A DNA stretch of 63,976 nt, filler included, from an uncultured bacterium (GCA_964506785.1; 3 parts of 3 records of this genome joined end to end with filler, not necessarily neighbours in it); one strand, 5' to 3'. Shown: positions 6,571 to 63,966, numbered from the whole stretch's first letter. Notes: a model not told the origin generated them from the letters alone. Made by a program: numbers and translations.

Positions 6571-6699
6571 AATTTTAAAAATCCTGCCTAAAAATCCTGC
6601 TTCAAGTCACTATCTTATATATGATATAATGACTTGTCCAGAAAATTATTAGACGCATCTGCATTCAAAAAAAGGGGTGCGTAATACAGGCTAAAGATT

Positions 6700-7455: not shown

Positions 7456-7472
7456 AAGGGCCGCCCCGTCAG

Positions 7473-8099
7473 TTAGTTCTTTACCAAATGCACCAAAAAG
7501 TATTCCTTCTCGTCTTCAAGCCTCTCAAGAGAAAAATTCGTCTTCTCTGCCCAGTTTCTAAATTCATCCGCAGCAGGGAGAAAATCCTTTGCGATGGGAA
7601 AAGCTTTTTTTGCGTGGAACCGATTTAAGTTCTGGCGGCTAGCCAGATGAAAAATTAAAAAACTCCCTCCATTTTTTAATAAACGAAAAGCCTCTTTTAT
7701 AATTTTTTCTTTATCTTGAAAGTGGGGAAAAGAAGAAAAACAAAAAATATGGGTAAAACTCCCATCTTTAAAAGGGAGATGTTGAGCATCTGCCTGAATC
7801 CAGGAGAATCCATTAGTGCCTTTGGAGGCAGCCTTATCTCTCCTTATCCGCATGCCCTGCCTGAGCATTTCCCCGGAGATATCCGAGACAAAAAAATTCA
7901 AAGAAACCTTAGAAAAATTTACTAAAAACTCTGATAATCTTCCCGTTCCGCCCCCTAAATCCAGGATAAAATCCTGCGGCCTAAATTTTACTGGAGAAAG
8001 AATCTTTTTTGCCTTTTTCTCATCTTCCTGCCTAAATTGATGTTTCCCGTGCCAGTTAGCGGCCAGGCTGTCAAAAAATTTTTGCTTGGTAGGTATCAT
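7473..8099 (-). CDS. Class I SAM-dependent methyltransferase
   Basis: ILDLGGGTG, DIS-ML, ADAQHLPF, FPHF; last gene of the nikR-headed operon. Confidence 0.9.
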   Translation of the reverse strand: MIPTKQKFFDSLAANWHGKHQFRQEDEKKAKKILSPVKFRPQDFILDLGGGTGRLSEFLVNFSKVSLNFFVSDISGEMLRQGMRIRRDKAASKGTNGFSWIQADAQHLPFKDGSFTHIFCFSSFPHFQDKEKIIKEAFRLLKNGGSFLIFHLASRQNLNRFHAKKAFPIAKDFLPAADEFRNWAEKTNFSLERLEDEKEYFLVHLVKN

Positions 8100-8141
8100 C
8101 GTTCCCTAAAAAAATAGCTGTCCCTATCTTTTTTCACCCAT

Positions 8142-8675
8142 TTAATGAATGATAACTCTATATCTATCTAACCCCTTTACCAAAATAGGGACGACAATAA
8201 AATTAAGGATAATCCCCGGGATATTTTTTATCAGCGCCGGCCAAACCAGCCACTCCCCCGGCAGATGGAAAACATCGGACATAGCTAAAACGTAAAGAAT
8301 AAGAATTCCCCTTTCGGTTAAAAAAGCCAGAGAAAGGCTCAGAAAAATGTTCCAGCGCATTTTTTGATGCGTCCAATAAGCAATTTGAGTCATAGCGGCA
8401 AATTCTAAACACATAAGAGGAGCAATGGGCGGATAAAGCGGCGGCATACCGGTAGTAAAGGAAGATAGAAAAGGGATAAGCAAACTTAAAACTAAAGTTA
8501 TCCGCCACTGCAGGGTAAACCCGGCCACCAGAATAGGGAAAAACATGGGCATAAAGGTTGCGCCCAAGCCCAGTGCGTGAAAAATAAGGGGGAGGAGAAG
8601 GGCTAATGCCCCCCATATTCCTCCCCAAACCATATCCTTAATTTCTGCTCTTGATTTTTCTCTTGATTTAACCAT
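8142..8675 (-). CDS. ECF transporter substrate-specific S component
   Basis: LLLPLIFHALG..FMPMFFPIL...TGMPPLYP pattern; about 6 TM; same operon as EcfT/EcfA. Confidence 0.8.
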   Translation of the reverse strand: MVKSREKSRAEIKDMVWGGIWGALALLLPLIFHALGLGATFMPMFFPILVAGFTLQWRITLVLSLLIPFLSSFTTGMPPLYPPIAPLMCLEFAAMTQIAYWTHQKMRWNIFLSLSLAFLTERGILILYVLAMSDVFHLPGEWLVWPALIKNIPGIILNFIVVPILVKGLDRYRVIIH

Positions 8676-8702
8676 TTTTCAATTACAGCAATTCCAATTT
8701 AC

Positions 8703-8731
8703 AATTATAGGGTATCCGATATCCTATAATT
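8703..8731. repeat. Intergenic inverted repeat (stem-loop)
   Basis: aattatagggtatccgatatcctataatt is a near-perfect palindrome between the TonB-dependent receptor and the S component. Confidence 0.6.
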
Positions 8732-8752
8732 TCGATAGCCAATAGTTATGAT

Positions 8753-10561: not shown

Positions 10562-10637
10562 GTTACTCTCCTTTCTGTTTCGTTTTTCTTAGGGATACGA
10601 TTCAGACCTGCCTCCCTCCGTAGGCAGAAAATACGGC

Positions 10638-11327
10638 TTAATAGCTCAGCTCAAACACCAGCGTCGTCTCAATAGTTTTACCAATAATGGCGCTATCTTT
10701 AGGCTTAGGGAAAGGTGAGGCTTTATCTAAAATCTTTCGGGCAGCCAGGTTTAAAGTCTTGTATTTTGAAAAACGGGTTAAATTAACATTTTTGGCTTTC
10801 CCAAATTTATCAATCTGAAATTCTAAGGTAACCTCTCCTTCCAGTCTGGCCATTTTTGCCCGGGGCGGATAAAATTTAGCTTTTTCAATTCGCCGCCTCA
10901 CTTCTTCTAAATAAGAATTATTGCCGCTCTGTGAAGTTACCTTCTCTTTGCCAGAACGTCCGCTTTTCTGCCCAAGACTCCGGCTTAACTTCCCTGCAGA
11001 CTTCTCTGCCGAAGTATCTGCTTTTTTTTCTTCTTTAATTTTCTCTTTTATCTTTTCCTTCGTAGATAAGAAATTCTTAAGCGGTTGAACCTCTTTCTTA
11101 TCCTTTTCTTTTTTAACTATCGGCCTTTTGGCTGAAGAAGCTTGTGGAATAACTTCGCTCCATCCGATTTCGAGAAGAATTACCTCTTCTCTATCCCTGC
11201 CTAAGTTCGAATTATTTATAGCATTACCCGCCCAGCCGCCAAATCCGCCGGCAATACCCAGATGAACAGCCAGAGAAACAAGCAAAAACTGAAAAAGAGG
11301 CGCGCTTCGCTTTCTATAACGATTCAT
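10638..11327 (-). CDS. tonB: Energy transducer TonB
   Basis: N-terminal TM with SLAVH, charged linker, C-terminal YPPRA..LEGEVTLEFQID domain. Confidence 0.9.
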   Translation of the reverse strand: MNRYRKRSAPLFQFLLVSLAVHLGIAGGFGGWAGNAINNSNLGRDREEVILLEIGWSEVIPQASSAKRPIVKKEKDKKEVQPLKNFLSTKEKIKEKIKEEKKADTSAEKSAGKLSRSLGQKSGRSGKEKVTSQSGNNSYLEEVRRRIEKAKFYPPRAKMARLEGEVTLEFQIDKFGKAKNVNLTRFSKYKTLNLAARKILDKASPFPKPKDSAIIGKTIETTLVFELSY

Positions 11328-12052: not shown

Positions 12053-12742
12053 CTAATTTTTTCGGGGTGAATAAAGGGTAAAAAATTCCCCTTTAAAGCC
12101 CCGGCTGTGAAGGGCCGATTCAAAAATCTCCCCTCTTTTTATCGTCCGGTAAAATATAGAATAAAGTAAATTCCTGATTTTTCCCCGCGCTTTGGTCTTA
12201 ACCAAACCGCGCGAGCGCAGGGCTAAGGGCAGCAGCCTGAATTCGTTTGTAAGAAGCTCCAAAGAACGGAGGACAAAAAACAGTTGAGAAATGATAAAAA
12301 CAGGGATCTTCATCTTTTTTAAGGCGTAAAGCAGTTCCGTCCGGTTAGTGGTAATAATAAAAACGTAACTTAAAGAAACAATAAGGGCGCCTTTAATAAA
12401 CATAAGGCCGAGGTGCTTGGTTCCTTTCAAATAGAACCCGGAGGGATAATTGCCGCCGGATTTTAAAGAATAGATTATGCCCAGTAAAACAGCCAGGACC
12501 AAAAAAAAACTTAAAAAAGGGAAAAGCATCAATCCATATATCTTTCTGTTCTGCCAGGCAGAGGCTAAAACAAAAAGAAGCAAAATGAAAAGAAGGGGGG
12601 GTAAAAGAAACCATAGCCTAAAGTTTATGGGGACGGCAAAAAGATAAATCAGTCCGCATAAAAAAATCGCCATTTTAAGAAGAGGGTGCCCTCTTTTTAA
12701 AATCGAATTATTCGCCTTTTTAAAAGTTATCAAAGGAAGCAT
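12053..12742 (-). CDS. ECF transmembrane T component (CbiQ/NikQ-like)
   Basis: HPLLK motif, TM helices, coupling motifs ALRSRG and ALHSRGF. Confidence 0.88.
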   Translation of the reverse strand: MLPLITFKKANNSILKRGHPLLKMAIFLCGLIYLFAVPINFRLWFLLPPLLFILLLFVLASAWQNRKIYGLMLFPFLSFFLVLAVLLGIIYSLKSGGNYPSGFYLKGTKHLGLMFIKGALIVSLSYVFIITTNRTELLYALKKMKIPVFIISQLFFVLRSLELLTNEFRLLPLALRSRGLVKTKARGKIRNLLYSIFYRTIKRGEIFESALHSRGFKGEFFTLYSPRKN

Positions 12743-12758
12743 CTGAATTTTTCAACCC

Positions 12759-13175
12759 CTATTTAATTTTCTCTCCGGTAGTCGCCATACTGAGCGAGCA
12801 GTGTTTAACCCCTTTAAGAGCTTCAAACATTGCGGCAATCTCTTTTATCCTCTGCGGTTTCCCTTTAGCCACTACTACCTCCAGACAATTATCGTGGTCC
12901 AGATGTATGTGCTGGGTGGTAAGAATTTCTTTGGTGTAATCGTGTTGGAGATGAGTTATTGTATGGTCCAGGCCCGGCCGGTGGTGGTCATAAATCATGG
13001 TGATGGTAGCGGCGACTATATCGCCAACCTGCCATTCCTGCTTCACCAAATCTTTACGGATTAAATCCCGAATCGCTTCGGAGCGGTTGCGGTATTTTCT
13101 CCCTTTGATAAGCCTGTCAAAATCCTCAAGCAGCTTTTTTTCTAAAGAAACCCCAAAACGCAAAATTTTAGACAT
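12759..13175 (-). CDS. nikR: Nickel-responsive ribbon-helix-helix regulator
   Basis: RFGVSL, NRSEAIRDLIR, YDHH, QH, HIHLDHDNCLEV Ni-site motif. Confidence 0.97.
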   Translation of the reverse strand: MSKILRFGVSLEKKLLEDFDRLIKGRKYRNRSEAIRDLIRKDLVKQEWQVGDIVAATITMIYDHHRPGLDHTITHLQHDYTKEILTTQHIHLDHDNCLEVVVAKGKPQRIKEIAAMFEALKGVKHCSLSMATTGEKIK

Positions 13176-13236
13176 CCTTTTTCTCCCTCTATAGTTTTAA
13201 ACTATGAGATGTGGGCCAAAAGCCATAAGCTACGCC

Positions 13237-13272
13237 GTAGCACTATTTTAGCAAAGATAACACCGCTGTCAA
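13237..13272 (-). promoter_or_regulatory. sigma70 promoter of nikR operon with overlapping putative NikR operator
   Basis: Minus strand TTGACA(13272-13267)-N16-TAAAAT(13250-13245) with extended TG; overlapped by GTGTTAT-N13-GTGCTAC (13263-13237). Confidence 0.75.
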
Positions 13273-13312
13273 GAAAAAAAATTCCGCACATCCCAGCTCC
13301 TTTTCAAAACCT

Positions 13313-14077
13313 TTAATTCTCCTTTATTATTTCTGAAACGGGAACAAATTCATAACCTCTCCCCTTTAAAACATCAATCACCCGGGGAAGACTTTTAATG
13401 CTTTCCGGACACTGCTCGTGATAAAGAATGATTGAACCGCCGGTAACCGTCCCCAGGATTGTCTCTTCAATTTGATTTTTTTCGATACCAAACCAGTCCT
13501 TAGAATCAACGGTCCAGAGAATTACCTTGAGGCCGAATCTGGGCATCACCACTAAATCTTCCAACATCATTGTTCCGTAGGGCGGGCGGAAAAGAGTGGG
13601 AGAGCTGCCGGTAATTTCTTTTAAAATCCTTTGTGTCCTTCTAAGTTCTTTAATCACCTTTACCGGGTTAGCCTTTCCCATATTCGGATGAGAATAGGAA
13701 TGATTGCCTATTTCATGCCCCCGCCTTTTAATTTCCAGAACCAGTTCTGGATAAGTCTCAGCGTTTTCTCCGATAAGAAAAAAAGTAGCGAGGATATTTT
13801 TCTCCTCCAACGCCTTAAGGATTAAAAGGGTATTTTCCTGATGGGGGCCGTCATCAAAAGTGAGGGCTACTTTTTGAGATGTGTACGGACCTGACCAGAA
13901 AACGGAAGTCTGTATACCCTTGGTTTTTTTGAGATTTCTAAACTGCCGCCGCTCCCTAAAATTATAGAAACTTTGTTGTTTTTTTTCTTCTGTTTCTCCT
14001 TCGCCCTCGCTTGAACCGACGGACGATACATTTACTATTACCCCCAAAGCAAATATCAAAAAAAATATTTTTTTCAC
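13313..14077 (-). CDS. Polysaccharide/peptidoglycan deacetylase (CE4, NodB)
   Basis: LTFDDGP, HSYSH, FRPPYG, DSKDW, ILYH; signal peptide. Confidence 0.93.
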   Translation of the reverse strand: MKKIFFLIFALGVIVNVSSVGSSEGEGETEEKKQQSFYNFRERRQFRNLKKTKGIQTSVFWSGPYTSQKVALTFDDGPHQENTLLILKALEEKNILATFFLIGENAETYPELVLEIKRRGHEIGNHSYSHPNMGKANPVKVIKELRRTQRILKEITGSSPTLFRPPYGTMMLEDLVVMPRFGLKVILWTVDSKDWFGIEKNQIEETILGTVTGGSIILYHEQCPESIKSLPRVIDVLKGRGYEFVPVSEIIKEN

Positions 14078-19218: not shown

Positions 19219-21381
19219 ATGGTAATTTTAATGAAAATAACCGAGGTTTGCCAAAAATATAATCTCCCTTTAAAAATTGCCAGCACCCTGGAGAAATCCG
19301 GTTTAAGCGCCTTTTACCCTCCTCAGGAAAGCGCCATAAAATCCGGAATTCTCGAAGGGAAAAATTTTGTTCTTTCCATGCCGACGGCCTCGGGGAAAAC
19401 ACTTCTGGCTGAGCTCTGCCTGATTCAATCCATTATCAAAAAAGGCGGCCGGTGTCTTTATGTCGTTCCCCTGCGTGCCTTAGCTTCGGAAAAATATGAG
19501 GATTTCAAACGAAAGTATGCCCCTCTGGGTATCAGGATAGGTATTGCCACCGGCGATTACGATACCCCCAGCCCGAATTTAGCCCGATATCAAATTCTTA
19601 TTGCCACTTCGGAAAAGATTGATTCTCTCCTCCGTTTCCGCACCCCCTGGCTCAGCCAGGATTTAAGCCTGGCCGTATTTGACGAAATTCATCTTCTTGA
19701 CGACCGCGGACGGGGACCAACTTTAGAAATCCTCATTGCCCGTCTCAGACAGCTAAATTCCCGAATGCAGGTTTTAGCCCTTTCGGCAACAATTGCCAAT
19801 GCCTCTGACCTGGCCAAATGGCTCCAAGCCGACTGTTTAATCAGCCGCTGGCGGCCTGTTCCTCTAAAAGAAGGGGTCTATTTTCGTAGAAAAATAAGAT
19901 TTGTTGACGGCGAAAATAAAATAATAAAGGAAAATACCCTGGAAGAATTCCCCTCTCTGGTTTTGGATACCATAAAAGAAAACGGCCAGGTCCTGGTTTT
20001 CGTCAATACCCGCCGCTCTACTCAGGCCACGGCCGCCAGAATTGCCCAGGCCGTCTATCCGCGTCTTAGTCAAGCAGAAAAAAAAGCCCTGGCGCCTATT
20101 GCCCGGAAAATAGAGGGGAGCCGTACTGAAGCGACGAAAATCTGCCAGAAATTAGCCGCCGCGGTAAAACACGGCGTCGCTTTTCATCATGCCGGACTCC
20201 GCCGGGAACAGCGCAAGCTGGTTGAAGATGCCTACCGCAATAACCTGATTAAGGTTATCTGCACTACTCCCACTCTGGCCGCCGGAGTAAATCTTCCTGC
20301 CCGCCGGGCGATTATCCGCGATTACCGCCGCTATGAAGCCGGGTTGGGTTCCTGCCGCATTGCCGTATTTGAGTATAAGCAGATGTGCGGCCGGGCCGGA
20401 CGCCCCCAATATGACGAATATGGCGAAGCCATACTTATCGCCCGTTCCGACCAGGAATCCGAATCTTTATTTGAAGAGTTTATTCTGGCCGAACCCGAGC
20501 CGATTACCTCTAAATTAGAGAATGAATCTGCTTTAAGGACGCATCTTCTTTCTTCGATTGCCTCCGGCTATATCCGCGATGAAAGGGGAATGATGGAATT
20601 TCTCCGTCATACCTTTTTCGCCTGCCAGAAGGAAAGCCAGGATTTATACTACATTATCGATAAAATTATGGACTTCCTCCACAAAGAAAAAATGATTGAA
20701 AGGTTCAAAGGGGGCTTCCGGGCCACTCCTTTTGGGGAAGAAATTTCCCGTCTCTATATCGACCCTCTTTCCGGTGTCGTTTTAAGAGACGGCCTGATTA
20801 GCGCCTGGGGCAGGAAAACAACTATCTCCGGCCTTCTTCATCTTATCTCGCTTACCCCGGATATGGACACCCTGAGGCTCAACCGAAAAGATTTTGAATC
20901 GGTTGAGCTCTTCGCCAAATTACACGAAAATGATTTTCTTCTTCCAACCGACCACTTCGATTATGAAGACCATCTTTCTATCTGTAAAACCGCCTATCTT
21001 TTGGAAAGCTGGGCCAAGGAAGAAAAGGAAGATACACTCTGCGATAAATTCGGGATTGGTCCGGGGGATATTCACCGCCTGATGGAAACGGCTGACTGGC
21101 TGATTTATTCGGCAAAAAAACTGGCCAAATTATTTGCCGCTCAAAGTTTGCCTAACCGGATAGAAAATATTCGCAGCCGGGTGAAATACGGGATAAAAGA
21201 GGAACTTCTGGATTTAGTCAAGCTTAAAGGAATCGGCCGCATCCGGGCACGGGCACTTTACAAAAAAGGGATTAAAAATCTCTCTATGCTCAAGAAAACC
21301 CAGCTTTCAAAATTAAGACAAATCCCCTATATCGGAAAGGAATTAGTTTTAAGTATTCAGCACCAGCTGGAATCGGAATAA
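19219..21381 (+). CDS. hel308: Hel308/Hjm (Ski2-like) ATP-dependent DNA helicase
   Basis: PTASGKT, DEIH, LSAT, AFHHAGL, TPTLAAGVNLPAR, QMCGRAGRP-YD-GEA, C-terminal HhH domain with GIGRIRARALY; start may be ATG 19231. Confidence 0.93.
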   Translation: MVILMKITEVCQKYNLPLKIASTLEKSGLSAFYPPQESAIKSGILEGKNFVLSMPTASGKTLLAELCLIQSIIKKGGRCLYVVPLRALASEKYEDFKRKYAPLGIRIGIATGDYDTPSPNLARYQILIATSEKIDSLLRFRTPWLSQDLSLAVFDEIHLLDDRGRGPTLEILIARLRQLNSRMQVLALSATIANASDLAKWLQADCLISRWRPVPLKEGVYFRRKIRFVDGENKIIKENTLEEFPSLVLDTIKENGQVLVFVNTRRSTQATAARIAQAVYPRLSQAEKKALAPIARKIEGSRTEATKICQKLAAAVKHGVAFHHAGLRREQRKLVEDAYRNNLIKVICTTPTLAAGVNLPARRAIIRDYRRYEAGLGSCRIAVFEYKQMCGRAGRPQYDEYGEAILIARSDQESESLFEEFILAEPEPITSKLENESALRTHLLSSIASGYIRDERGMMEFLRHTFFACQKESQDLYYIIDKIMDFLHKEKMIERFKGGFRATPFGEEISRLYIDPLSGVVLRDGLISAWGRKTTISGLLHLISLTPDMDTLRLNRKDFESVELFAKLHENDFLLPTDHFDYEDHLSICKTAYLLESWAKEEKEDTLCDKFGIGPGDIHRLMETADWLIYSAKKLAKLFAAQSLPNRIENIRSRVKYGIKEELLDLVKLKGIGRIRARALYKKGIKNLSMLKKTQLSKLRQIPYIGKELVLSIQHQLESE

Positions 21382-29070: not shown

Positions 29071-31527
29071 TCAGAACTTCACCTTTACCCAATCCAATAA
29101 AACTCCCAGATTAGCGCTATAACCTTTAATGGCATATTCGTAGGGATTCCAGACAGTTGCGGTAATTCTTAAGACCGCCCTCCGGGGAAGAGAAGATTTA
29201 GTTACTGATGAAGGAATAATTAGGTTATATTCTTTGAATTCATTGGCCACTTCAAATTCTTTGATAAAATTTCCGTCCAGATAAAGAGAAATCCGGGCTA
29301 ATTTTTCTTCTTTCGGCCGGGCTCCGCCCATTTTGATAGTCAAACTAACCTTTTTATCTTCCTCCGGCCAGGGGATAGTTATTTCGGCCAGGCCGTATGT
29401 CCAGCGGCCGTTTATTCCGCCGCTATAGTTTCTCACCCGGTCAAAACCGCCGGCCAGGCCAAAGCAGTTTCGGCCGATATCGATAAAATGTTCACCTTTC
29501 TTTTCTTGCCTTTTTCTCTCAAGCAGCTTTAGCTGAAAGATTTTAACCGGTATTTTAAATTTTTTCACCTTCCGGGGAATCTGACGCAGCGGTTCTTCCA
29601 GCCGGCTTGAGTCTAAAATAGCCGAACCAACCTCCTGAAAATCGACTCTTGGGGTAAAAGGTTTGCTTTCCCGGGAGATATAGAAGACTTGCTTGTTTTC
29701 TTCAAGCCATTTCTCTATTATACTTAAGGCCTGCCAGGCTTTAGGGATATTTTGGTCAGAAAGGGAAAGGGTGTTTTTACCGTAGATATAATGCAAGGGA
29801 GTAGCCAGCCAATATCCATCACAGATATAGATAGCTTCTTCTTTCATTTGTTTCGCCAGATTTTCCGAAAATTCAATCATCCCTTGATAATCCACCTGTT
29901 TTATCAAAAGGGGAATTCGCCAGATGGGGAAGGCAAGAAGATAAATACAGATAGCCGTAGCTATGATTCGGCCGGTTATTTTTTTTCGCTCGCTTAATTC
30001 GATAATCAGGTAGCTGGCAAAAAGGTAAAAGCTGGGTACCATAAAGGGAACATAGCGCCTGAGGGCCCAGGGGTAGCTGGGAGCCAGGACCTTGTTACGC
30101 AGGAAGAAAAACGAAAAGGTTAAGGCCATGATGACAAAAGGTGCTTTTTTTCGGGAAAAACCCTGCCAAAAGGCCATCCCTAATCCAAAGATTGCCAGCC
30201 AGAAGCCTAAAGGGGTAAGGAAGAGAGCCAATTCTTGGGCATTGGTAGCATTGTTATTTAGAGGCATTATCCGGGGGCGAAGAAAATAAAGATAAAATGC
30301 CAGAAGCACTAGGAGCAAACTAGCCCCTCTTCTAAGATATTTCTTCTGGCAGAGGCGGTTAAAGAACGGCTTTATTTTCCCGGAGAAGACTTTTAAAAGA
30401 ATTAGCAGAATTAGGCCTGTCCCCAGAGCAATTACGGCTTTATCCCTGGCCGGATTGAATTTATAATGGTACCAATAAATGTTATAAATATAGGTTTTAG
30501 TAAAAAATACCCCCTGAATTAGCAAATAGACCAGTAAAAGGCTGAAAGGAACGATAAAAAAGAGGTCAAAACGCCTAAATTTCCCCCAATTTCGGTAGAA
30601 AAAGTAAAGAACTAATGCCGGAAGAATGAGGATAATGGTAAAAGAAGAAAGGAGAGCGGCTCCCAGGGTAAAGGCTCCGATTAAAGCCAGGAAAGGTTCA
30701 TTTTTCTCTTCATAAAGGGCCAAAAGATAGATTCCGCTCCAGAGTAGAAACTGACTGAATATTTCAGTGGTAGAAAAGCGAACATACCAAATCTGGATAA
30801 CGCTTAGGGCCAGAAATAGAGAGGCAAGCCCGGCTACTTTGCGGTTAAAAAGAATCCTGGCGGCTTGATAAAAGGCCAGGAGCCCCAAGAGGGCGAAGCA
30901 CGGATTTAGATAAAGGCTGAAGCGCAGGCCAAAAAGGCTGTAGAAGATAGCTATCCAGACTGGATAAAGGTGATAAAAACGGGGAATAATCCGACCCCTA
31001 ACTGAATCGGTAATCATGAAGCCGGGATATTTCTGCTGGATATTTACCCGGTTGTGAGAGAAGGCTTCCTGTTCCGCGGCCTTTAGGCCGGCCCAGGTTT
31101 TATCTTCAATCTTGATTGAGCCGGTTTTGGCGATATTTATCCCGGTGTTGAGATATGTTCCCGGGTCCCAGCCTCCTTCCAGATACTGATGCGGCCGGAA
31201 GAAGATAAAGGAGCTTAAAGCTAATAAAGCTAAAAGAAACCAGTTGGGCCGGAAGCGGATTTTTTTAAACTTTAACCCTTCCGGCCGTTTAAGATAAAGG
31301 CAGATAAATATAGTTAATGAATAGATACCCAGAAAAAAGACAAGATAGAAAAGGGAGAAAAAACCAAGTTGAGCCAATATCAGGCCGATTAAAGAACTGA
31401 GAAGAATGCTGATAAGTAAAGAGAAAGAATTTTTTCCCTTTAAAAGAAGACTGGTGAGATAGCCGGGCAGAAAAAAGATAAAAATGGCTGATAAAATCTT
31501 TCCGAAAAGCAGGAAGGCTGAATTCAT
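29071..31527 (-). CDS. GT-C (ArnT/PMT-like) polytopic glycosyltransferase with C-terminal extracytoplasmic domain
   Basis: More than 12 TM; GGWDPGTY, FYHLYPVW, QIWYVRFSTTE, WALRRYVP; soluble beta-rich C-terminus. Confidence 0.82.
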   Translation of the reverse strand: MNSAFLLFGKILSAIFIFFLPGYLTSLLLKGKNSFSLLISILLSSLIGLILAQLGFFSLFYLVFFLGIYSLTIFICLYLKRPEGLKFKKIRFRPNWFLLALLALSSFIFFRPHQYLEGGWDPGTYLNTGINIAKTGSIKIEDKTWAGLKAAEQEAFSHNRVNIQQKYPGFMITDSVRGRIIPRFYHLYPVWIAIFYSLFGLRFSLYLNPCFALLGLLAFYQAARILFNRKVAGLASLFLALSVIQIWYVRFSTTEIFSQFLLWSGIYLLALYEEKNEPFLALIGAFTLGAALLSSFTIILILPALVLYFFYRNWGKFRRFDLFFIVPFSLLLVYLLIQGVFFTKTYIYNIYWYHYKFNPARDKAVIALGTGLILLILLKVFSGKIKPFFNRLCQKKYLRRGASLLLVLLAFYLYFLRPRIMPLNNNATNAQELALFLTPLGFWLAIFGLGMAFWQGFSRKKAPFVIMALTFSFFFLRNKVLAPSYPWALRRYVPFMVPSFYLFASYLIIELSERKKITGRIIATAICIYLLAFPIWRIPLLIKQVDYQGMIEFSENLAKQMKEEAIYICDGYWLATPLHYIYGKNTLSLSDQNIPKAWQALSIIEKWLEENKQVFYISRESKPFTPRVDFQEVGSAILDSSRLEEPLRQIPRKVKKFKIPVKIFQLKLLERKRQEKKGEHFIDIGRNCFGLAGGFDRVRNYSGGINGRWTYGLAEITIPWPEEDKKVSLTIKMGGARPKEEKLARISLYLDGNFIKEFEVANEFKEYNLIIPSSVTKSSLPRRAVLRITATVWNPYEYAIKGYSANLGVLLDWVKVKF

Positions 31528-58014: not shown

Positions 58015-58965
58015 ATGGCAAAAAAACATAAATCGATCGATTTTAGGAAAATAAAGACTGTTTCTCTTAAAGAAAGAAAAAACAAGGTCAAAATGGAAAA
58101 TTTTGCCAAGGTTTGCTCTAAGGGAGGCGGTTTTAAAGAATTTTTGGATTCCCTCCCCAAAATTTTAACTGGAAATGATATCCGAGATGTGTTAAACTCT
58201 ATAGGACGGGCTTATCAAACGAAGAAAATAATTCTTTTTTCTCTTGGGGCCCATGTGATAAAGTGCGGGCTGAATCCCGTCATTATAGACCTTATACATA
58301 AAAGGGTTATTGATGGGCTGGCCCTGAACGGAGCCGGGCTCATTCATGATGTGGAAATCGCCTTAATTGGGGCGACTTCCGAAAATGTCAATTCCGGATT
58401 AGCTAATGGCACCTTTGGCATGGCCAGAGAGACGGCTGAGTTAATTAATAAAGCTGTAAGCGAAGCCGGCCAGAAAAATAAAGGGATTGGGGAAGTCGTT
58501 GGGGATAAACTGCTTACCCTTAAAGCACCTAATAATTCCGTAAGCATTGTTGCCCAAGCCAGGGCTTTAGATATCCCGATAACTATCCATCCAGCTATAG
58601 GGACTGATATAGTTCACCAGCATCCAGGTGTAGACAGCCAGGCTTGGGGAAAGGCCGGTTTTTCGGATTTTCGCCTTTTTATTAAATTGGTCAGCCAGCT
58701 TGAAGGGGGAGTTTTTATTAATGTCGGTTCGGCAGTAATTATGCCAGAGGTTTTTTTAAAAGCTTTAACTGTAGCCCGCAATTTAAAGTTCAAAGTAAAA
58801 AAATTCACTACTGTCAATATGGACCAAATAGAACACTATCGTTCTAAAATGAATATTGTCAAGAGGCCGACTGAACTCGGCGGACAGGGATATTATTTAA
58901 TTGGCCGGCATGAGGTCATGGTTCCTTTTTTAGCCAGAGCGATAAAGGAAGAGTTGGATTTATGA
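58015..58965 (+). CDS. Conserved protein, deoxyhypusine-synthase-like fold
   Basis: GAHVIKCGL, NGAG.IHD.E, G.FGMA.ET, HPAIGTDI.HQHP, GSAVIMPEVFLKAL, GRHE.M.P. Confidence 0.7.
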   Translation: MAKKHKSIDFRKIKTVSLKERKNKVKMENFAKVCSKGGGFKEFLDSLPKILTGNDIRDVLNSIGRAYQTKKIILFSLGAHVIKCGLNPVIIDLIHKRVIDGLALNGAGLIHDVEIALIGATSENVNSGLANGTFGMARETAELINKAVSEAGQKNKGIGEVVGDKLLTLKAPNNSVSIVAQARALDIPITIHPAIGTDIVHQHPGVDSQAWGKAGFSDFRLFIKLVSQLEGGVFINVGSAVIMPEVFLKALTVARNLKFKVKKFTTVNMDQIEHYRSKMNIVKRPTELGGQGYYLIGRHEVMVPFLARAIKEELDL

Positions 58966-59960
58966 AAATTGACTTAAGGCATCTTAAAAATGTTATTAAG
59001 AAATTTTCCCAGACAAAAGTTCTTGTCCTGGGCGACGTGATGCTTGATGAATTTATCTGGGGAAAGGTTTCCCGTATTTCTCCCGAAGCGCCAGTTCCGG
59101 TGGTAGATATTCATTCAGAATCAATGATGCCCGGGGGAGCGGCTAATGTCCTGGCAAATCTTAATAGTTTAGGCGCGGAGTCTTATTTGGCCGGGGTAGT
59201 CGGAAAGGACAGGGCCGGAGAGGTCCTTCGCCAAGAGGTACTGAAGAGGAAAGTAAGTGACGAAGGTTTGATAGTTGACCCGAAAAGGAAAACTATTTCT
59301 AAAAGCCGTCTTATTGCTCATAGCCAGCAAGTGGTAAGAATGGACCGCGAAACTCGAGAAGAAATTAAAGGGGAAATTTTTAATCAGTTAATGCGTTATC
59401 TTAAAAGCATGATTCCCAAAATAGATGCCTTGATTATTTCCGATTATGGTAAGGGAGTAGTTACCGAAAGGCTGCTTAAAGAATTACTTCCCATGGCCCG
59501 CCTGGCTAAGAAGCGGGTTGCGATTGATCCTAAATTAGGTAATTTTTTTAATTATCGCGGGGTAACTATGATTACTCCCAACCAGAATGAGGTGGAGAGG
59601 GCTATGGGGATAGAAATTAAAAATGAGAGAGATTTATTTAAAGCCGGAAAGGAGGTTTTAAAACGGCTTAACTGTGAAAGTCTTTTGATTACCCGCGGGG
59701 AAGAAGGAATGACTCTTTTTGAACCTAATCGTCATCCGGTAAATATTCCGACGGTAGCGCGAGAAGTTTACGATGTAACCGGGGCCGGCGATACGGTTAT
59801 AAGTACCCTTACCTTAGCTTTAAGCCTCGGTCTGAACAAGGAAGAAGCCGCCCATCTGGCTAATTTGGCTGCCGGGATCGTTGTCGGTGAGATTGGGACG
59901 GCTACCTTAACTCAAAAAGAACTTGTAGAGGCAATCGAGTTAGAAAATCAAAATACATGA
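58962..59960 (+). CDS. rfaE1: D-glycero-beta-D-manno-heptose-7-phosphate kinase (HldA)
   Basis: GDVMLD, RISPEAPVPV, GGAANV, SDYGKG, TPN, DVTGAGDT. Confidence 0.96.
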   Translation: MKIDLRHLKNVIKKFSQTKVLVLGDVMLDEFIWGKVSRISPEAPVPVVDIHSESMMPGGAANVLANLNSLGAESYLAGVVGKDRAGEVLRQEVLKRKVSDEGLIVDPKRKTISKSRLIAHSQQVVRMDRETREEIKGEIFNQLMRYLKSMIPKIDALIISDYGKGVVTERLLKELLPMARLAKKRVAIDPKLGNFFNYRGVTMITPNQNEVERAMGIEIKNERDLFKAGKEVLKRLNCESLLITRGEEGMTLFEPNRHPVNIPTVAREVYDVTGAGDTVISTLTLALSLGLNKEEAAHLANLAAGIVVGEIGTATLTQKELVEAIELENQNT

Positions 59961-60682
59961 AAACCATTGGTGTGATTCCAGCGAGATTCGATTCAAGGCG
60001 GCTGCCCGGTAAACCGCTGGCAGAGATTGAAAAAAAACCTCTGATCCAATATGTTTACCAGCAAGCTCAAAAGGTGAAAAATATAGATGAGCTTTTAGTG
60101 GCCACTGATAATGAGAGAATCTTTAATAAAGTCCGCCAATTCGGCGGTAAAGTGAAATTAACTTCGGCTCAATGCCGTTCGGGTTCTGACCGAGTGGCCG
60201 AGGCAATCAAAGATATTAAATGTGAAGTAGTGGTTAATATTCAGGGCGATGAGCCTTTTTTCGAGCCAGAGATGGTTGAAAAGATGATTGGGCTTTTAAC
60301 AAAAAATCCGGAAATTCAAGTTAGCACCCCCTGCGTTAAGATAAAGAAACGTGAAGAGATAAAAGATGAAAATGTGGTAAAAGTGGCTTTAGATAAAGAT
60401 AATTTCGCTATTTATTTTTCACGTTTACCCATTCCTTATTTTCGAGAAGGAAAGGGCAATTTTTTAAAACATTTAGGTTTTTATGCTTTTCGGAGAGATT
60501 TCCTTTTGCAATTTAGCCGCTGGCCGCAAACTCCCTTGGAAAAAGCGGAGAAACTCGAACAGCTTAGAATATTAGAGAATGGCTGCCGGATAAAAGTGGT
60601 TGAGTGTCATTCCGATAGTTTAGGAATCGATGTGCCGGCAGATCTTCAGAGAGCAAAAGAATTTTTAAAAGTTAGAGTTTGA
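59957..60682 (+). CDS. kdsB: 3-deoxy-manno-octulosonate cytidylyltransferase
   Basis: IPARFDSRRLPGKPL, SGSDR, NIQGDEP, YFSR, EKLEQLR. Confidence 0.97.
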   Translation: MKTIGVIPARFDSRRLPGKPLAEIEKKPLIQYVYQQAQKVKNIDELLVATDNERIFNKVRQFGGKVKLTSAQCRSGSDRVAEAIKDIKCEVVVNIQGDEPFFEPEMVEKMIGLLTKNPEIQVSTPCVKIKKREEIKDENVVKVALDKDNFAIYFSRLPIPYFREGKGNFLKHLGFYAFRRDFLLQFSRWPQTPLEKAEKLEQLRILENGCRIKVVECHSDSLGIDVPADLQRAKEFLKVRV

Positions 60683-60685
60683 GCT

Positions 60686-62209
60686 ATGAGTAAAAAAATT
60701 GGATTTGATAACAGCAAATATCTCCAGGAACAAAGCCGGGCAATTCTTGAGAGAGTCAATAGGTTTGACCATAAGCTTTATCTGGAATTTGGGGGGAAAC
60801 TTTGTTTTGATTATCATGCTGCCCGGGTTCTGCCTGGATACGAGCCAACGGTCAAAATGAAACTTTTGCAGCGGCTGAGGGAAAAGATTGATATTGTTTT
60901 TTGCATATATGCCAAAGATGTAGAGAAGGGAAGAATTAGAGGGGACTTTGGCATGACTTATGATATGGCTATATTAAAAACGATAGACGATTTGATGGAT
61001 TGGGATTTAACGGTTTCCTCAGTGGTTATCACCCGTTTTAATAATGAACCGGCGGCGGTTAAATTAATGAATAAGCTTAAGAAGAAGAATATAAAAATCT
61101 ATACCCACGCGGAAATTGAAGGATACCCCGGGGATATCGATAAAATTGTAAGCGAAGAAGGGTATGGAAAAAACGCCTATATAAAAACAACAAAGCCGAT
61201 AGTGATAGTAACAGCCCCCGGCCCGGGGAGCGGGAAACTGGCGACTTGTCTTTCTCAGCTTTATCACAGTCACAAAAGAAACATTAATTCCGGCTATGCT
61301 AAATTTGAAACATTTCCGGTATGGAATCTGCCCTTAAAGCACCCGGCAAATATTGCTTATGAAGCGGCGACGGCTGATATAAAAGATTTTAATTTAGTCG
61401 ACCCTTTCCACCTGGCTGCTTACGATGAAACGGCGATAAATTATAACCGGGATGTGGAAGCCTTTCCCATTTTACAGGCTATTCTAAACAGGATTGTCGG
61501 TAAGGAGGCTAAACAGGGCGTTTATAATTCCCCAACCGAAATGGGGGTCAACAGGGCCGGATTTGCTATTACCGATGATAAGCTGGTAAAGGAAGCGGCC
61601 AAACAGGAAATAATCAGGCGCTACTTCAGATATAACTGGGAGTTTATGATGGGTGTAGGAAGAAAAGAGACGGTAGCCAAGACCGAGCGGCTTATGCAGG
61701 AGATGAAAGTAAAGCCTGAGGATAGGCCAACAGTTTTACCAGCCAGGAAAACGGTGCGCCAGGCAGAGAAAAAAAAGAATGATGATGAAGGAATTTACTG
61801 CGGAGCAGCAATAGAGCTGGCCAACGGGAAAATTGTAACCGGAAAAAACTCTCTATTGTTGCATGCTACCTCAGCGGTTATTTTAAATGCGATAAAGGTT
61901 TTGGCGAAAATCCCGGATAAAATTCCACTTTTGCCGGCATCGGTTATAAAAAGTCTGGCCAATCTTAAAAAAGATGTTTTAGAGATGAAATCAGAAAGTT
62001 TGGATTTAGAAGAAACCTTGGTGGCTCTGTCCATCAGTGCAACAAGCAATCCGGCGGCTGAAGAAGCATTAAATCGACTTAAAGAACTTAGAGAATGTGA
62101 ACTTCATATGACCCATATACCGCCGGCTGGAGATGAAGAAGGATTGAGGAAATTAGGCATAAACGCCACTACCGATGCTCTCCCAACATCCAGATATTTT
62201 TTGAGGTGA
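60686..62209 (+). CDS. DUF1846 (UPF0371) P-loop protein
   Basis: GFDN.KY, KLYLEFGGKL, HAARVLPG, TAPGPGSGK, GYAKFETFP, AYEAATAD, NYNRD, SPTEMGVN. Confidence 0.93.
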   Translation: MSKKIGFDNSKYLQEQSRAILERVNRFDHKLYLEFGGKLCFDYHAARVLPGYEPTVKMKLLQRLREKIDIVFCIYAKDVEKGRIRGDFGMTYDMAILKTIDDLMDWDLTVSSVVITRFNNEPAAVKLMNKLKKKNIKIYTHAEIEGYPGDIDKIVSEEGYGKNAYIKTTKPIVIVTAPGPGSGKLATCLSQLYHSHKRNINSGYAKFETFPVWNLPLKHPANIAYEAATADIKDFNLVDPFHLAAYDETAINYNRDVEAFPILQAILNRIVGKEAKQGVYNSPTEMGVNRAGFAITDDKLVKEAAKQEIIRRYFRYNWEFMMGVGRKETVAKTERLMQEMKVKPEDRPTVLPARKTVRQAEKKKNDDEGIYCGAAIELANGKIVTGKNSLLLHATSAVILNAIKVLAKIPDKIPLLPASVIKSLANLKKDVLEMKSESLDLEETLVALSISATSNPAAEEALNRLKELRECELHMTHIPPAGDEEGLRKLGINATTDALPTSRYFLR

Positions 62210-62231
62210 GAATGATGTCAAGGGGATCTTT

Positions 62232-63062
62232 ATGAAGGAAGTGATAGTAGATAGCGTAAAAATTGGTGCCGGGAATCCGCTTGTTTTAATTGCCGGGCCT
62301 TGTGTTATCGAAAATGAAACCAGCGCTTTAGAACATGCCCGATTAATCAAGAAGGTGGCTGGTAAAGCTGGGATTCCTTTGATATATAAATCGAGTTATG
62401 ACAAGGCCAATCGGACCTCAATAGATTCTTTCCGCGGCCCGGGATTGAAAAAGGGTTTAAAAATTCTTAAAAGAGTTAAAGAAGAATTAAAGATACCTGT
62501 TTTGAGCGATATCCATACCCAGGGAGAAATAAAAGAAGCCGAAAAGGTGTTAGATGTAATCCAGATTCCTGCTTTACTCTGCCGGCAGACAGATTTATTG
62601 CTGGCGGCGGGCCGGACAGGCAAACCAATAAATATAAAGAAGGGTCAATTCTTATCCCCCGAGGATATGGAGCCGATAATAAAAAAGATAGCCTCCACCG
62701 GTAACGAAAATATCCTTCTTACCGAACGGGGAAGCTGTTTTGGCTACCGTAATCTAATCAGTGATTTTCGTTCCCTGGTGATTATGGGGAAATTTAGTTA
62801 TCCGGTAATCTATGATGCTACTCATTCGGTTCAACTGCCGGGTGGAAAGGGTTCTGTCAGCGGAGGTAAAAGAGAATTTATAAAACCCCTGGCTTTGGCT
62901 GCTTCAGCGGTTGGCTGCGATGGAATATTTATCGAGGTTCACCAGCATCCCGAGGAGGCTCTCTGTGACGGGCCTAATAGCCTGCCTCTGGCGGAATTAT
63001 TAGAGCTTATTCAAACTATAAAAGAAATCGACAGGATAACCCATGGTTATAAAAAGAGCTAA
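62232..63062 (+). CDS. kdsA: Kdo-8-phosphate synthase
   Basis: IAGPCVIE, DKANRTS, QIPALLCRQT, KKGQF, ERG, DATHSVQ, CDG. Confidence 0.97.
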   Translation: MKEVIVDSVKIGAGNPLVLIAGPCVIENETSALEHARLIKKVAGKAGIPLIYKSSYDKANRTSIDSFRGPGLKKGLKILKRVKEELKIPVLSDIHTQGEIKEAEKVLDVIQIPALLCRQTDLLLAAGRTGKPINIKKGQFLSPEDMEPIIKKIASTGNENILLTERGSCFGYRNLISDFRSLVIMGKFSYPVIYDATHSVQLPGGKGSVSGGKREFIKPLALAASAVGCDGIFIEVHQHPEEALCDGPNSLPLAELLELIQTIKEIDRITHGYKKS

Positions 63063-63966
63063 GGAAATTCTTAAAATTGAATCCGAAGCCGTTAAAAATT
63101 TAATCAATCGAATTGACGATAAATTTGAAAAGGCGGTAAAGATTATTCTTCGCTGTCAGGGAAGAGTAGTGGTTACCGGAATGGGTAAATCTGGTTTAAT
63201 CGGAAAAAAGATTGCTGCTACTTTAGCCAGTACCGGCACGCCGGCTTTATTCCTTCATCCCGCTGAAGGCATTCATGGCGATTTAGGTATGATGGTTAAG
63301 GGGGACGTGATGATCGCTATTTCCCACAGCGGAGCTACCGAAGAAATAGCCCTTTTAGTCCCGGCGGTAAAAAGGCTGGGCATTAAATTGATTTCTTTAA
63401 CCGGAGATATTAACTCTCTTTTAGCTAAAAACAGCGAAGTAGTTTTGGACATTAGCGTACCCAAGGAGGCCTGTCCTTTTGGTTTAGCTCCGACGGCCAG
63501 TACCACGGCAACTTTAGCTTTAGGAGATGCTCTGGCAATTACTTTGTTAGAGAAAAGAGGTCTTAAAAAAGAAGATTATGCTTTTTTGCATCCGGGGGGC
63601 AGCCTGGGCAAAAAATTACTCAGGGTTTCAGATTTGATGCACCAGGGAGAAGAAATCCCCCAGGTGGGTGAAAATGTTTTAATGCGGAAGGCAATCCTTG
63701 AAATGACGGTTAAACGGCTGGGGGTAACGGCAGTGGTTAACGAAAACGGCGGGTTGGTTGGTGTTATTACCGATGGTGATTTAAGGAGACTTTTGGCTAG
63801 ATCGTCTACTCCTCTGGATTTAAGGGCCAAAGAGGTGATGGGTGGAAGTCCAAAGACGATCAAAAAGGAAGAATTGGCTGAGAAGGCTCTTAAGATGATG
63901 GAGGATAATGCCATTACTTCACTGATGATTTTAGGAAAAGATACGACTTGGATGAGAATGAAGTAG
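63043..63966 (+). CDS. kdsD: Arabinose-5-phosphate isomerase (KpsF/GutQ, SIS+CBS); last residues atypical
   Basis: GMGKSG, EGIHGDLG, EACPFGLAPTAST, HPGG, ITDGDLRR. Confidence 0.95.
   Translation: MVIKRAKEILKIESEAVKNLINRIDDKFEKAVKIILRCQGRVVVTGMGKSGLIGKKIAATLASTGTPALFLHPAEGIHGDLGMMVKGDVMIAISHSGATEEIALLVPAVKRLGIKLISLTGDINSLLAKNSEVVLDISVPKEACPFGLAPTASTTATLALGDALAITLLEKRGLKKEDYAFLHPGGSLGKKLLRVSDLMHQGEEIPQVGENVLMRKAILEMTVKRLGVTAVVNENGGLVGVITDGDLRRLLARSSTPLDLRAKEVMGGSPKTIKKEELAEKALKMMEDNAITSLMILGKDTTWMRMK

What the first reader, a model, noticed from the sequence alone, without database searches (positions are those of the whole stretch)
59957..63062. DUF1846 occupies the slot normally held by CTP synthase (kdsB-pyrG-kdsA)
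Seen: rfaE1-kdsB-DUF1846-kdsA-kdsD, with 3-nt and 22-nt gaps around DUF1846. Known: kdsB-pyrG-kdsA is a widely conserved order and KdsB consumes CTP; DUF1846/UPF0371 is, to my knowledge, uncharacterised. The protein has a P-loop (GPGSGK) and a C-terminal region (GAAIELANGKIVTGKN...) reminiscent of a cytidine-deaminase-type fold. Inference: in situ non-orthologous displacement, making DUF1846 a candidate alternative CTP-forming or cytidine-nucleotide enzyme.
Basis: partly seen in the sequence, partly recalled or inferred. Interest (0 to 1): 0.72.

Follow-up and report, generated by a model that had tools for sequence, protein, structure and literature searches.

The report
Second CTP synthase in Kdo operon

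Summary
The order is rfaE1-kdsB-DUF1846-kdsA-kdsD on the + strand, with 3-nt and 22-nt gaps.

A 2024 bioRxiv preprint (10.1101/2024.09.24.614635, sections read) shows that pneumococcal DUF1846 protein Spd_0310 (PyrJ) is synthetic-lethal with pyrG and converts UTP to CTP with ammonia, not glutamine. The window's protein is a full-length ortholog (E 1e-151 to PDB 7f00; TM 0.88-0.93).

New here: in 301 sampled genomes of the Omnitrophota phylum, the same cluster occurs in three forms.
- pyrG in the slot: at least 25 genomes.
- Empty slot: 10 genomes seen.
- DUF1846 in the slot: 4 genomes plus the window.

pyrG was not found in 37 of 301 genomes, and 32 of those 37 carry DUF1846.

Whether the window's own genome lacks pyrG could not be tested, because no genome is held. 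Of the four other in-slot genomes, two keep pyrG elsewhere.

This scan had already identified PyrJ on other DNA several times, but never in this slot.

The parts
58015..58965 (+). GSU2086-family (deoxyhypusine-synthase-like) gene directly upstream of rfaE1, in the same gene string
   Evidence: NF052581, 402.9 bits (cut-off 250); same position in G217 (L152), 49% identity.
58962..59960 (+). rfaE1 / HldE domain I: D-glycero-beta-D-manno-heptose-7-phosphate kinase
   Evidence: PfkB fold; TIGR02198 399.7 bits (cut-off 345). Overlaps kdsB by 4 nt.
59957..60682 (+). kdsB: CMP-Kdo synthetase, which consumes CTP
   Evidence: PF02348 E 4.6e-63; NF003952 309.1 bits (cut-off 193).
60686..62209 (+). pyrJ ortholog (DUF1846/UPF0371), 507 aa: inferred ammonia-dependent CTP synthase in the slot that pyrG holds in relatives
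   Evidence: PF08903 + PF20921; NF010184 722.7 bits; E 9.7e-152 to 7f00 (Spd_0310); model pLDDT 92.1; TMq 0.93 to 3bh1 and 0.88 to 7f00.
60698..61705 (+). N-terminal domain (residues 5-340), P-loop NTPase-like
   Evidence: PF08903, residues 5-340; weak matches of residues 20-207 to P-loop NTPases (YloQ 1t9h Z 8.2; human CTP synthetase domain 2vo1 Z 5.5).
61220..61237 (+). P-loop GPGSGK (residues 179-184)
   Evidence: G179, G183 and K184 in 100 of 100 aligned sequences; S182 in 99; P180 in 92.
61724..62179 (+). C-terminal domain (residues 347-498), cytidine-deaminase-like fold without the deaminase catalytic Glu
   Evidence: PF20921; residues 343-507 match guanine deaminase 1tiy (Z 10.9, rmsd 2.4, 100 aligned) and many CDA-superfamily chains at Z 8-9; the H/C-A-E equivalent reads H393-A394-T395.
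62232..63062 (+). kdsA: Kdo-8-phosphate synthase
   Evidence: PF00793 E 6.8e-71; NF003543 394 bits (cut-off 242).
63043..63966 (+). kdsD-like arabinose-5-phosphate isomerase (SIS + CBS), ending 10 nt before the window's end
   Evidence: SIS and CBS domains; TIGR00393 320.9 bits (cut-off 203.7).

Best explanation
ORF 60686-62209 encodes a PyrJ-type CTP synthase. The enzyme has two domains and no glutamine amidotransferase domain. It makes CTP from UTP, ATP and free ammonia.

The N-terminal P-loop domain is inferred to bind ATP and activate the uracil C4 oxygen. The C-terminal cytidine-deaminase-like domain is inferred to hold the pyrimidine while ammonia replaces the activated oxygen, so the enzyme runs a deaminase reaction backwards, driven by ATP. 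This mechanism is the preprint authors' speculation. Only the overall reaction is shown, and only for the pneumococcal enzyme.

In this bacterium, probably a divergent member of the Omnitrophota, the gene sits in a tight rfaE1-kdsB-pyrJ-kdsA-kdsD string, in the position that pyrG occupies in related genomes. A CTP-making enzyme is therefore co-expressed with KdsB, the CTP-consuming step of Kdo activation for lipopolysaccharide. The locus is a non-orthologous replacement of pyrG by pyrJ at one operon position. Whether pyrG survives elsewhere in this genome is unknown.
For: Family and structure.
- Full-length matches to both DUF1846 Pfam domains, and to the NCBIfam equivalog NF010184 above its cut-off.
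- E 9.7e-152 over residues 3-498 to PDB 7f00, the Spd_0310 protein.
- AlphaFold model pLDDT 92.1, superposing on 3bh1 (TMq 0.93) and 7f00 (TMq 0.88), and VIA Z 45.2 to 7f00.
- All 59 columns invariant in 100 homologs, including the P-loop G179/G183/K184, are by construction present in the window's protein.

Function of the family.
- Preprint 10.1101/2024.09.24.614635, section 7 read in full: pyrG/spd_0310 synthetic lethality, rescue by cytidine, and purified protein making CTP from UTP with ammonia only.
- Its Discussion passage: about 31% of pyrJ genomes lack pyrG.
- The C. difficile DUF1846 gene gives a strong CRISPRi viability defect (passages).

Independent genomic evidence gathered here.
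(a) Of 30 pyrG loci in the phylum sample, 10 read rfaE1-(kdsB)-pyrG-kdsA-kdsD. A further 15 genomes have DUF1846 immediately upstream of such a cluster.
(b) Of 144 classified DUF1846 loci, 4 read rfaE1-kdsB-DUF1846-kdsA-kdsD like the window (G217, G196, G216, G036).
(c) 9 genomes of the window's DUF1846 clade have the cluster with an empty slot.
(d) pyrG (TIGR00337) was found in 264 of 301 genomes and DUF1846 in 147 of 301. Of the 37 without pyrG, 32 have DUF1846 (Fisher odds ratio 8.3, p 7e-7).
(e) The CTP-synthase N domain PF06418 was over its cut-off in 0 of 10 of these genomes re-tested. They include G148, whose main contig is 1.55 Mb of about 1.6 Mb.
(f) 35 of 144 DUF1846 genes lie within 9 kb of pyrG, on the same strand in all 35. 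They are often arranged as pyrG-carA-carB'-DUF1846.
Against: - No assay exists for this protein or any Omnitrophota homolog. Function is transferred from an enzyme 49-51% identical.
- The only experimental source found is a preprint. The library holds no peer-reviewed version.
- The window's protein differs from the characterised pneumococcal type at a cluster of possible metal ligands. It has H393, C471 and H477, where the Streptococcus row (L063) has T, L and V.
- Most genomes with DUF1846 also have pyrG (115 of 147), so the two enzymes are not simply interchangeable alternatives.
- The Fisher test ignores shared ancestry, and the completeness of these assemblies is not reported.
- 103 of 144 DUF1846 loci in the phylum sample, and 160 of 160 loci outside it, are not linked to kds genes. 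The Kdo link is therefore lineage-specific.
- An earlier paper assigns the same pneumococcal protein a hemin-binding role (abstract only).
Confidence: 0.85

Rival explanations
1. PyrJ here is only an accessory, second CTP synthase. pyrG is present elsewhere in the genome, and pyrJ in the Kdo operon adds CTP supply when glutamine is scarce or ammonia is plentiful. pyrG has been relocated, not replaced.
For: - G217 and G196 share the window's in-slot order and have pyrG on another contig.
- 115 of 147 DUF1846 genomes in the sample also have pyrG.
- 4 of the 10 other members of the window's DUF1846 clade have pyrG.
- In S. pneumoniae the two enzymes coexist.
Against: - G216 and G036, also in-slot, have no detectable pyrG or PF06418 domain.
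- 6 of the 10 other clade members lack pyrG.
Confidence: 0.5
2. The protein is a hemin-binding or hemin-transfer protein of iron homeostasis, as proposed for Spd_0310 in 2022, and its place in the Kdo operon is incidental.
For: - Cao et al. 2022 (PMC9238395, abstract only) report hemin binding and an iron phenotype for Spd_0310.
- feoB lies about 6 kb upstream in the window.
Against: - The protein carries an invariant P-loop and a nucleotide-deaminase-like domain.
- Its genes cluster with pyrG, carA/carB and kdsB, not with iron genes, in 35 + 6 of 144 loci.
- pyrG absence is concentrated in DUF1846 carriers.
- The preprint gives direct enzymology.
- Four LPS genes separate it from feoB.
Confidence: 0.04
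3. The Omnitrophota subtype catalyses a related but different reaction. Examples would be amination or deamination of another pyrimidine nucleotide, or a cytidine-nucleotide step specific to Kdo activation.
For: - 48 of 100 aligned sequences, including the window's, carry an H-C-H-H set at positions 393/471/474/477 that the Streptococcus row lacks.
- Identity to the characterised enzyme is only about 50%.
Against: - The same subtype (HCHH) occurs in G216, which has no pyrG.
- G148 carries HCHN and is a near-complete genome with no pyrG. Some enzyme must make CTP in these genomes.
- The same slot is filled by pyrG in relatives.
- The whole family scores above one equivalog model.
Confidence: 0.07

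Closest known systems
PyrJ (Spd_0310, DUF1846/UPF0371) of Streptococcus pneumoniae; PDB 7f00; bioRxiv 10.1101/2024.09.24.614635
   Same: - Same two-domain architecture over the full length.
- 49-51% identity, E 9.7e-152.
- Same fold (TMq 0.88, Z 45.2).
- Invariant P-loop and no glutaminase domain.
- Genomic signature of redundancy with pyrG.
   Different: - Found in a diderm, uncultured lineage (Omnitrophota-like), whereas the preprint describes PyrJ as mostly in Firmicutes and Actinobacteria.
- Embedded in a Kdo/LPS operon in the pyrG position.
- Carries H393/C471/H477, which the Streptococcus-type sequence lacks.
- Not assayed.
PyrG, the classical glutamine-dependent CTP synthase (TIGR00337; PF06418 + class I GATase)
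   Same: - Inferred same net reaction (UTP to CTP, ATP-dependent).
- Same operon position between kdsB and kdsA in related genomes.
- Both use a P-loop-type nucleotide-binding domain.
   Different: - No sequence membership: Pfam finds only the DUF1846 domains.
- Only a weak structural match to the human synthetase domain 2vo1 (Z 5.5, rmsd 5.2).
- No glutamine amidotransferase domain, so ammonia only.
Cytidine/deoxycytidylate deaminase superfamily (for example guanine deaminase 1tiy, cytidine deaminase 3dmo and 1af2, dCMP deaminase 4p9c)
   Same: The C-terminal domain (residues 343-507) has the same fold: Z 10.9 to 8.2 over 93-107 aligned residues.
   Different: - The catalytic Glu of the H/C-A-E motif is absent: position 395 is A, S or T in 89 of 100 sequences.
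- No P-C-x-x-C motif; D483/E484 are conserved instead.
- The motif definitions are recalled, not from a call.
- The direction of the reaction is amination.
kdsB-pyrG-kdsA / pyrG-kdsA gene neighbourhood of Gram-negative bacteria
   Same: Same flanking genes and order. Seen here in Omnitrophota and as pyrG-kdsA-kdsD in a Syntrophorhabdus genome.
   Different: The middle gene is pyrJ instead of pyrG.

Membership tests
PyrJ / DUF1846 (UPF0371) ammonia-dependent CTP synthase | Both Pfam domains (PF08903 N, PF20921 C) present at full length | tested here: met
   residues 5-340 (E 8.2e-159) and 347-498 (E 1.4e-48).
PyrJ / DUF1846 (UPF0371) ammonia-dependent CTP synthase | Scores above the curated cut-off of the NCBIfam equivalog model | tested here: met
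   NF010184, 722.7 bits against a cut-off of 631, covering residues 3-498.
PyrJ / DUF1846 (UPF0371) ammonia-dependent CTP synthase | End-to-end similarity and shared fold with the characterised protein Spd_0310 (7f00) | tested here: met
   E 9.7e-152. TMq 0.88, 49% identity. Z 45.2 over 468 residues.
PyrJ / DUF1846 (UPF0371) ammonia-dependent CTP synthase | Conserved P-loop (GPGSGK) in the N-terminal domain | tested here: met
   G179, G183 and K184 in 100 of 100 sequences; present in the window.
PyrJ / DUF1846 (UPF0371) ammonia-dependent CTP synthase | Catalyses UTP + ATP + NH3 to CTP and cannot use glutamine | not testable with these tools
   Shown only for the pneumococcal enzyme. The absence of any GATase domain in the window's protein is consistent with it.
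PyrJ / DUF1846 (UPF0371) ammonia-dependent CTP synthase | Can stand in for PyrG: genomes exist with pyrJ and no pyrG | tested here: met
   32 of 147 DUF1846 genomes have no pyrG match, against 5 of 154 genomes without DUF1846. PF06418 over its cut-off in 0 of 10 re-tested. The window's own genome was not testable.
PyrG classical CTP synthase | CTP_synth_N (PF06418) plus class I glutamine amidotransferase domains | tested here: not met
   only DUF1846 domains at E <= 0.001. Z 5.5 to the 2vo1 synthetase domain, within the background range.
Cytidine deaminase-like superfamily (C-terminal domain) | CDA fold | tested here: met
   more than 20 CDA-superfamily chains at Z 7-10.9, covering residues 343-507.
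Cytidine deaminase-like superfamily (C-terminal domain) | Zinc and catalytic motifs H/C-A-E and P-C-x-x-C (motifs recalled from general knowledge) | tested here: not met
   the equivalent of H/C-A-E reads H-A-T in the window. His is present in 59 of 100 sequences and no Glu occurs at the third position. No P-C-x-x-C. Only H474 is invariant.

The most novel reading that the evidence does not exclude
In this organism PyrJ is the only CTP synthase and has taken over pyrG's seat inside the Kdo operon. All CTP, and therefore lipopolysaccharide core synthesis, would then depend on free ammonia rather than glutamine. More widely, Omnitrophota would be a phylum in which PyrG has been lost many times (at least 24 changes on the gene tree; 32 of 301 sampled genomes) wherever PyrJ was available. 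The three states of one operon slot (pyrG, empty, pyrJ) would record that replacement step by step.
Probability: 0.4. Interest if true: 0.55.

Novelty: new member of a known kind. Interest (0 to 1): 0.4.

Why it matters
According to the preprint, PyrG was the only CTP synthase known in any form of life until PyrJ was reported. The evidence for PyrJ rests on one organism and one preprint.

The data gathered here give independent comparative support from an uncultured diderm phylum. The same operon position between kdsB and kdsA is filled by pyrG in some genomes and by pyrJ in others. Genomes without pyrG are almost all pyrJ carriers.

The data also extend PyrJ well beyond the Firmicutes and Actinobacteria named in the preprint: 147 of 301 sampled Omnitrophota genomes carry it. 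They link it to CMP-Kdo synthesis. They also suggest that part of this phylum makes CTP from ammonia alone, which bears on the nitrogen economy of these small-genome bacteria.

Tried and rejected
- **pyrG in the window's own genome:** impossible, because no genome is held. None of the 8 larger window ORFs scanned is pyrG. The rest of the window was not scanned family by family.
- **Closer relatives:** the order of G217 holds only G217. The class sample and the metagenome scan (best 62% identity) gave nothing closer than 71%, so the in-slot order could not be followed within the window's own lineage.
- **Promoter and terminator scans:** chance level.
- **C-terminal domain folded alone without an alignment:** unusable model, pLDDT 44.8. 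The domain result comes from the full-length model instead.
- **Foldseek on the whole model:** only the two DUF1846 entries at E <= 0.001.
- **Literature on the kdsB-pyrG-kdsA order:** 4 papers hold all three words, none listed as dealing with the order (listing only).
- **Number of origins of the in-slot order:** the KdsB+KdsA tree did not settle it. The window sits on a long branch, and its join to the G216/G036/G196 group carries a long-branch warning.
- **Group codes for the genome handles:** not available.
- **Hemin-binding reading:** considered and rejected on context and on the preprint's enzymology.
- **Supplements:** the preprint's figures S13 and S14 (distribution of pyrJ and of pyrG loss) could not be seen. 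They may already cover phyla beyond those named in the text.


Full report
**What is there.** On the + strand, the window's last 6 kb carry a tight gene string: a GSU2086-family gene (58015-58965), rfaE1 (58962-59960), kdsB (59957-60682), a 507-aa DUF1846 gene (60686-62209), kdsA (62232-63062) and a kdsD-like isomerase (63043-63966). Pfam and NCBIfam confirm every assignment. Consensus promoter and terminator scans were at chance level and say nothing either way.

**What the middle gene is.** The protein matches both DUF1846 Pfam domains over their full length. It exceeds the cut-off of the NCBIfam equivalog NF010184 (722.7 against 631 bits). It aligns end to end with two solved structures, 7f00 (Spd_0310 of S. 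pneumoniae, E 9.7e-152) and 3bh1 (C. diphtheriae DIP2346, E 4.6e-138). A model built on 100 homologs is confident (pLDDT 92.1, pTM 0.89) and superposes on both structures (TMq 0.93 and 0.88).

A full-text search for the family name led to the bioRxiv preprint 10.1101/2024.09.24.614635. I read its section 7 in full. spd_0310 and pyrG are synthetic-lethal, the double depletion is rescued by cytidine only, and purified Spd_0310 converts UTP to CTP with ammonia but not with glutamine. The authors rename the gene pyrJ. The Discussion passage adds three points:
- PyrJ is mostly in Firmicutes and Actinobacteria.
- About 31% of pyrJ genomes lack pyrG.
- The protein is a P-loop ATPase-like domain joined to a cytidine-deaminase-like domain.

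A C. difficile study lists its DUF1846 gene among essential genes of unknown pathway, with a strong CRISPRi defect (passages). No later paper on PyrJ is in the library. An earlier paper calls the same protein a hemin carrier (abstract only).

**The fold claims.** VIA-align of the full model against 48,161 representative chains gave 7f00 at Z 45.2. For residues 343-507 it then gave a long run of cytidine-deaminase-superfamily enzymes:
- guanine deaminase 1tiy: Z 10.9, rmsd 2.4, 100 aligned residues
- TadA 2b3j: Z 9.0
- dCMP deaminase 4p9c: Z 8.8
- yeast cytosine deaminase 8i3o: Z 8.6
- cytidine deaminases 3dmo (Z 8.5) and 1af2 (Z 8.2)

Residues 20-207 match P-loop NTPases only weakly (YloQ 1t9h Z 8.2; human CTP synthetase domain 2vo1 Z 5.5), which lies within the tool's stated background.

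In the alignment of 100 homologs, the P-loop G179, G183 and K184 are invariant. The deaminase catalytic motif is not kept. The position equivalent to H/C-A-E reads H393-A394-T395 in the window, His is present in 59 of 100 sequences, and no sequence has Glu at the third place. Only H474 is invariant among Cys/His residues of the domain. Positions 393/471/474/477 read H-C-H-H in 48 of 100 sequences, including the window, but T-L-H-V in the Streptococcus row. The motif definitions are from general knowledge, not from a call.

**Is the slot really pyrG's slot?** No genome is held for the window, so I worked from relatives. The DUF1846 protein has relatives in many phyla at 61% identity or less, and none of the 80 best loci has a kds gene within 6 kb. 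One of them is an Omnitrophota assembly (G002).

In a sample of 301 genomes of its phylum, 147 have the gene, at up to 71% identity, and 264 have pyrG. Among the 30 best pyrG loci, 10 read rfaE1-(kdsB)-pyrG-kdsA-kdsD, with flanking genes 44-63% identical to the window's. pyrG-kdsA-kdsD also occurs in a Syntrophorhabdus genome.

I then fetched up to 9 kb on each side of the remaining DUF1846 genes and classified 144 of the 147 carriers. Three hold only fragments, and 23 had only 1.5 kb flanks. The classes are:

| DUF1846 locus state | Genomes |
|---|---|
| rfaE1-kdsB-DUF1846-kdsA-kdsD, like the window (G217, G196, G216, G036) | 4 |
| DUF1846 directly upstream of rfaE1-kdsB-pyrG-kdsA-kdsD | 15 |
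| DUF1846 upstream of a cluster with no pyrG seen in the slot (one cut by a contig end) | 2 |
| DUF1846 within 9 kb of pyrG on the same strand, away from kds genes (5 directly adjacent) | 20 |
| Elsewhere | 103 |

The non-kds neighbourhood is typically pyrG-carA-carB(N-terminal half)-DUF1846, which is a pyrimidine-synthesis context. Outside the phylum, 0 of 160 loci are linked to kds genes and 2 of 160 have pyrG nearby.

**The empty state.** In nine genomes of the window's DUF1846 clade, kdsB is followed directly by kdsA: G186, G007, G016, G353, G148, G042, G074, G180 and G377. Seven of these have no pyrG match; G180 and G377 have pyrG elsewhere. G209 is a tenth empty-slot genome, with DUF1846 upstream of rfaE1. 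One cluster thus occurs with pyrG, with nothing, or with pyrJ between kdsB and kdsA.

**Anti-correlation.** Counting all 301 genomes:

| | pyrG found | pyrG not found |
|---|---|---|
| DUF1846 found | 115 | 32 |
| DUF1846 not found | 149 | 5 |

The two genes mostly coexist, as in S. pneumoniae. But absence of pyrG is concentrated in DUF1846 carriers: 32 of 147 against 5 of 154, odds ratio 8.3, Fisher p 7e-7. Incompleteness alone should remove pyrG equally from both groups.

The CTP-synthase N domain (PF06418) was over its cut-off in 0 of 10 pyrG-less genomes re-tested, while the same searches hit 14 of 14 control genomes. One of the ten, G148, has a 1.55-Mb contig in a genome of about 1.6 Mb.

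On a FastTree of 167 DUF1846 sequences, pyrG presence needs at least 24 changes (shuffled labels: mean 31, minimum 26), so the absences are scattered rather than one clade.

Caveats: this is a gene tree, not a species tree; the Fisher test ignores relatedness; and assembly completeness is not reported for these handles.

**Where the window sits.** On the DUF1846 tree the window lies in an 11-row clade (support 93). G217 (in-slot, pyrG elsewhere) branches first, the window next, and the crown consists of nine genomes; the seven examined have an empty slot. The sister group of seven includes five genomes with pyrG in the slot (G030, G182, G279, G300, G285). The other three in-slot genes (G216, G196, G036) form a separate small clade, and parsimony needs at least 3 changes of the in-slot state.

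A KdsB+KdsA tree puts the window on a long branch inside a 19-row group (support 89) that holds all in-slot, empty and several pyrG-slot genomes. It does not resolve the window's sister; the join to G216/G036/G196 carries a long-branch warning.

The simplest reading is that pyrG left the slot in this group and pyrJ entered it once or a few times. The order of events is not established.

The window's organism has no close representative: at most 71% identity for PyrJ and 57% for KdsB+KdsA. Other earlier notes call it Ratteibacteria-like.

**How it most likely works.**
- Shown elsewhere: PyrJ makes CTP from UTP with ammonia.
- Shown here: orthology, fold, the invariant P-loop, the absence of a glutaminase domain, and the interchange of pyrG and pyrJ at one operon position.
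- Inferred: ATP-dependent activation of uracil O4 in the P-loop domain, and amination in the deaminase-like domain.
- Inferred: co-expression with KdsB, so that CTP is made where CMP-Kdo synthesis consumes it.
- Open: whether pyrG is absent from this genome. Of the 10 other clade members, 6 lack it. Of the 4 other in-slot genomes, 2 lack it.

**Novelty and verdict.** The enzyme family and its function are already described, in a preprint. This scan had identified PyrJ on other DNA seven or eight times, including in Omnitrophota nucleotide operons. The gene is therefore a new member of a known kind.

What seems not to be in print is the Kdo-operon context, the three-state slot and the high frequency in Omnitrophota. 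The preprint's main text contains none of the words kdsB, kdsA, Kdo, lipopolysaccharide, Omnitroph or synteny. No paper in the library holds both "Omnitrophota" and "CTP synthase". The preprint's supplements could not be read.

Noticed in passing
window 61862-61864, 62096-62098, 62105-62107, 62114-62116 (residues H393, C471, H474, H477): A possible metal-binding set H-C-H-H in the deaminase-like domain. It is present in 48 of 100 aligned PyrJ homologs, including the window and most Omnitrophota, but reads T-L-H-V in the Streptococcus row and D-C-H-T in 13 rows, the Clostridium aciditolerans row (L013) among them. The characterised enzyme therefore belongs to a different subtype.
   Followed up: partly
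window 58015-58965; L152 (G217) 12458-13393: A GSU2086-family, deoxyhypusine-synthase-like gene sits directly upstream of rfaE1 in both the window and G217 (49% identity). Its role in an LPS-core cluster is unexplained.
   Followed up: no
L189 (G289) 4476-10527; also L146, L150, L151: A conserved Omnitrophota cluster pyrG-carA-carB(N-terminal half, 553 aa)-DUF1846, followed by a beta-CASP RNase and an M48 peptidase. carB appears to be split.
   Followed up: partly
L155 (G007) 2575-3645: In pyrG-less genome G007, the carA-like gene lacks the glutaminase Cys and His (GIGAGCQ and FYP in place of GICLGHQ and HPE). The other 5 carA genes examined keep them. This fits the ammonia-route theme of earlier scan notes, but it is a single case.
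   Followed up: partly
L157 (G148) 10139-10909; L158 (G180) 9819-10586; L154 (G186) 5661-6377: In the window's closest relatives, a 238-256-aa gene follows DUF1846 directly. The G148 copy matches PF02540 (NAD synthase) with no glutaminase domain found, and the G180 and G186 copies group with it by BLASTP. It is possibly another ammonia-dependent amidation enzyme.
   Followed up: no
L289 (G003, WOR-3) 1978-7158; L039 641-5313: Outside Omnitrophota, pyrG and DUF1846 are also neighbours in a WOR-3 genome (divergent, 2.1 kb apart) and in a Clostridiales contig (same strand, 1.6 kb apart).
   Followed up: no
window 19219-21381 (+) and 29071-31527 (-): A Hel308-type helicase scores 875.8 bits on NF002654, just under its cut-off of 887. 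An 818-aa ORF has no NCBIfam match at E <= 1e-10.
   Followed up: no
L295 (G074:C1:62618-63433): The kdsA match in pyrG-less genome G074 contains one in-frame TAA. This could be a sequencing error or a broken gene.
   Followed up: no
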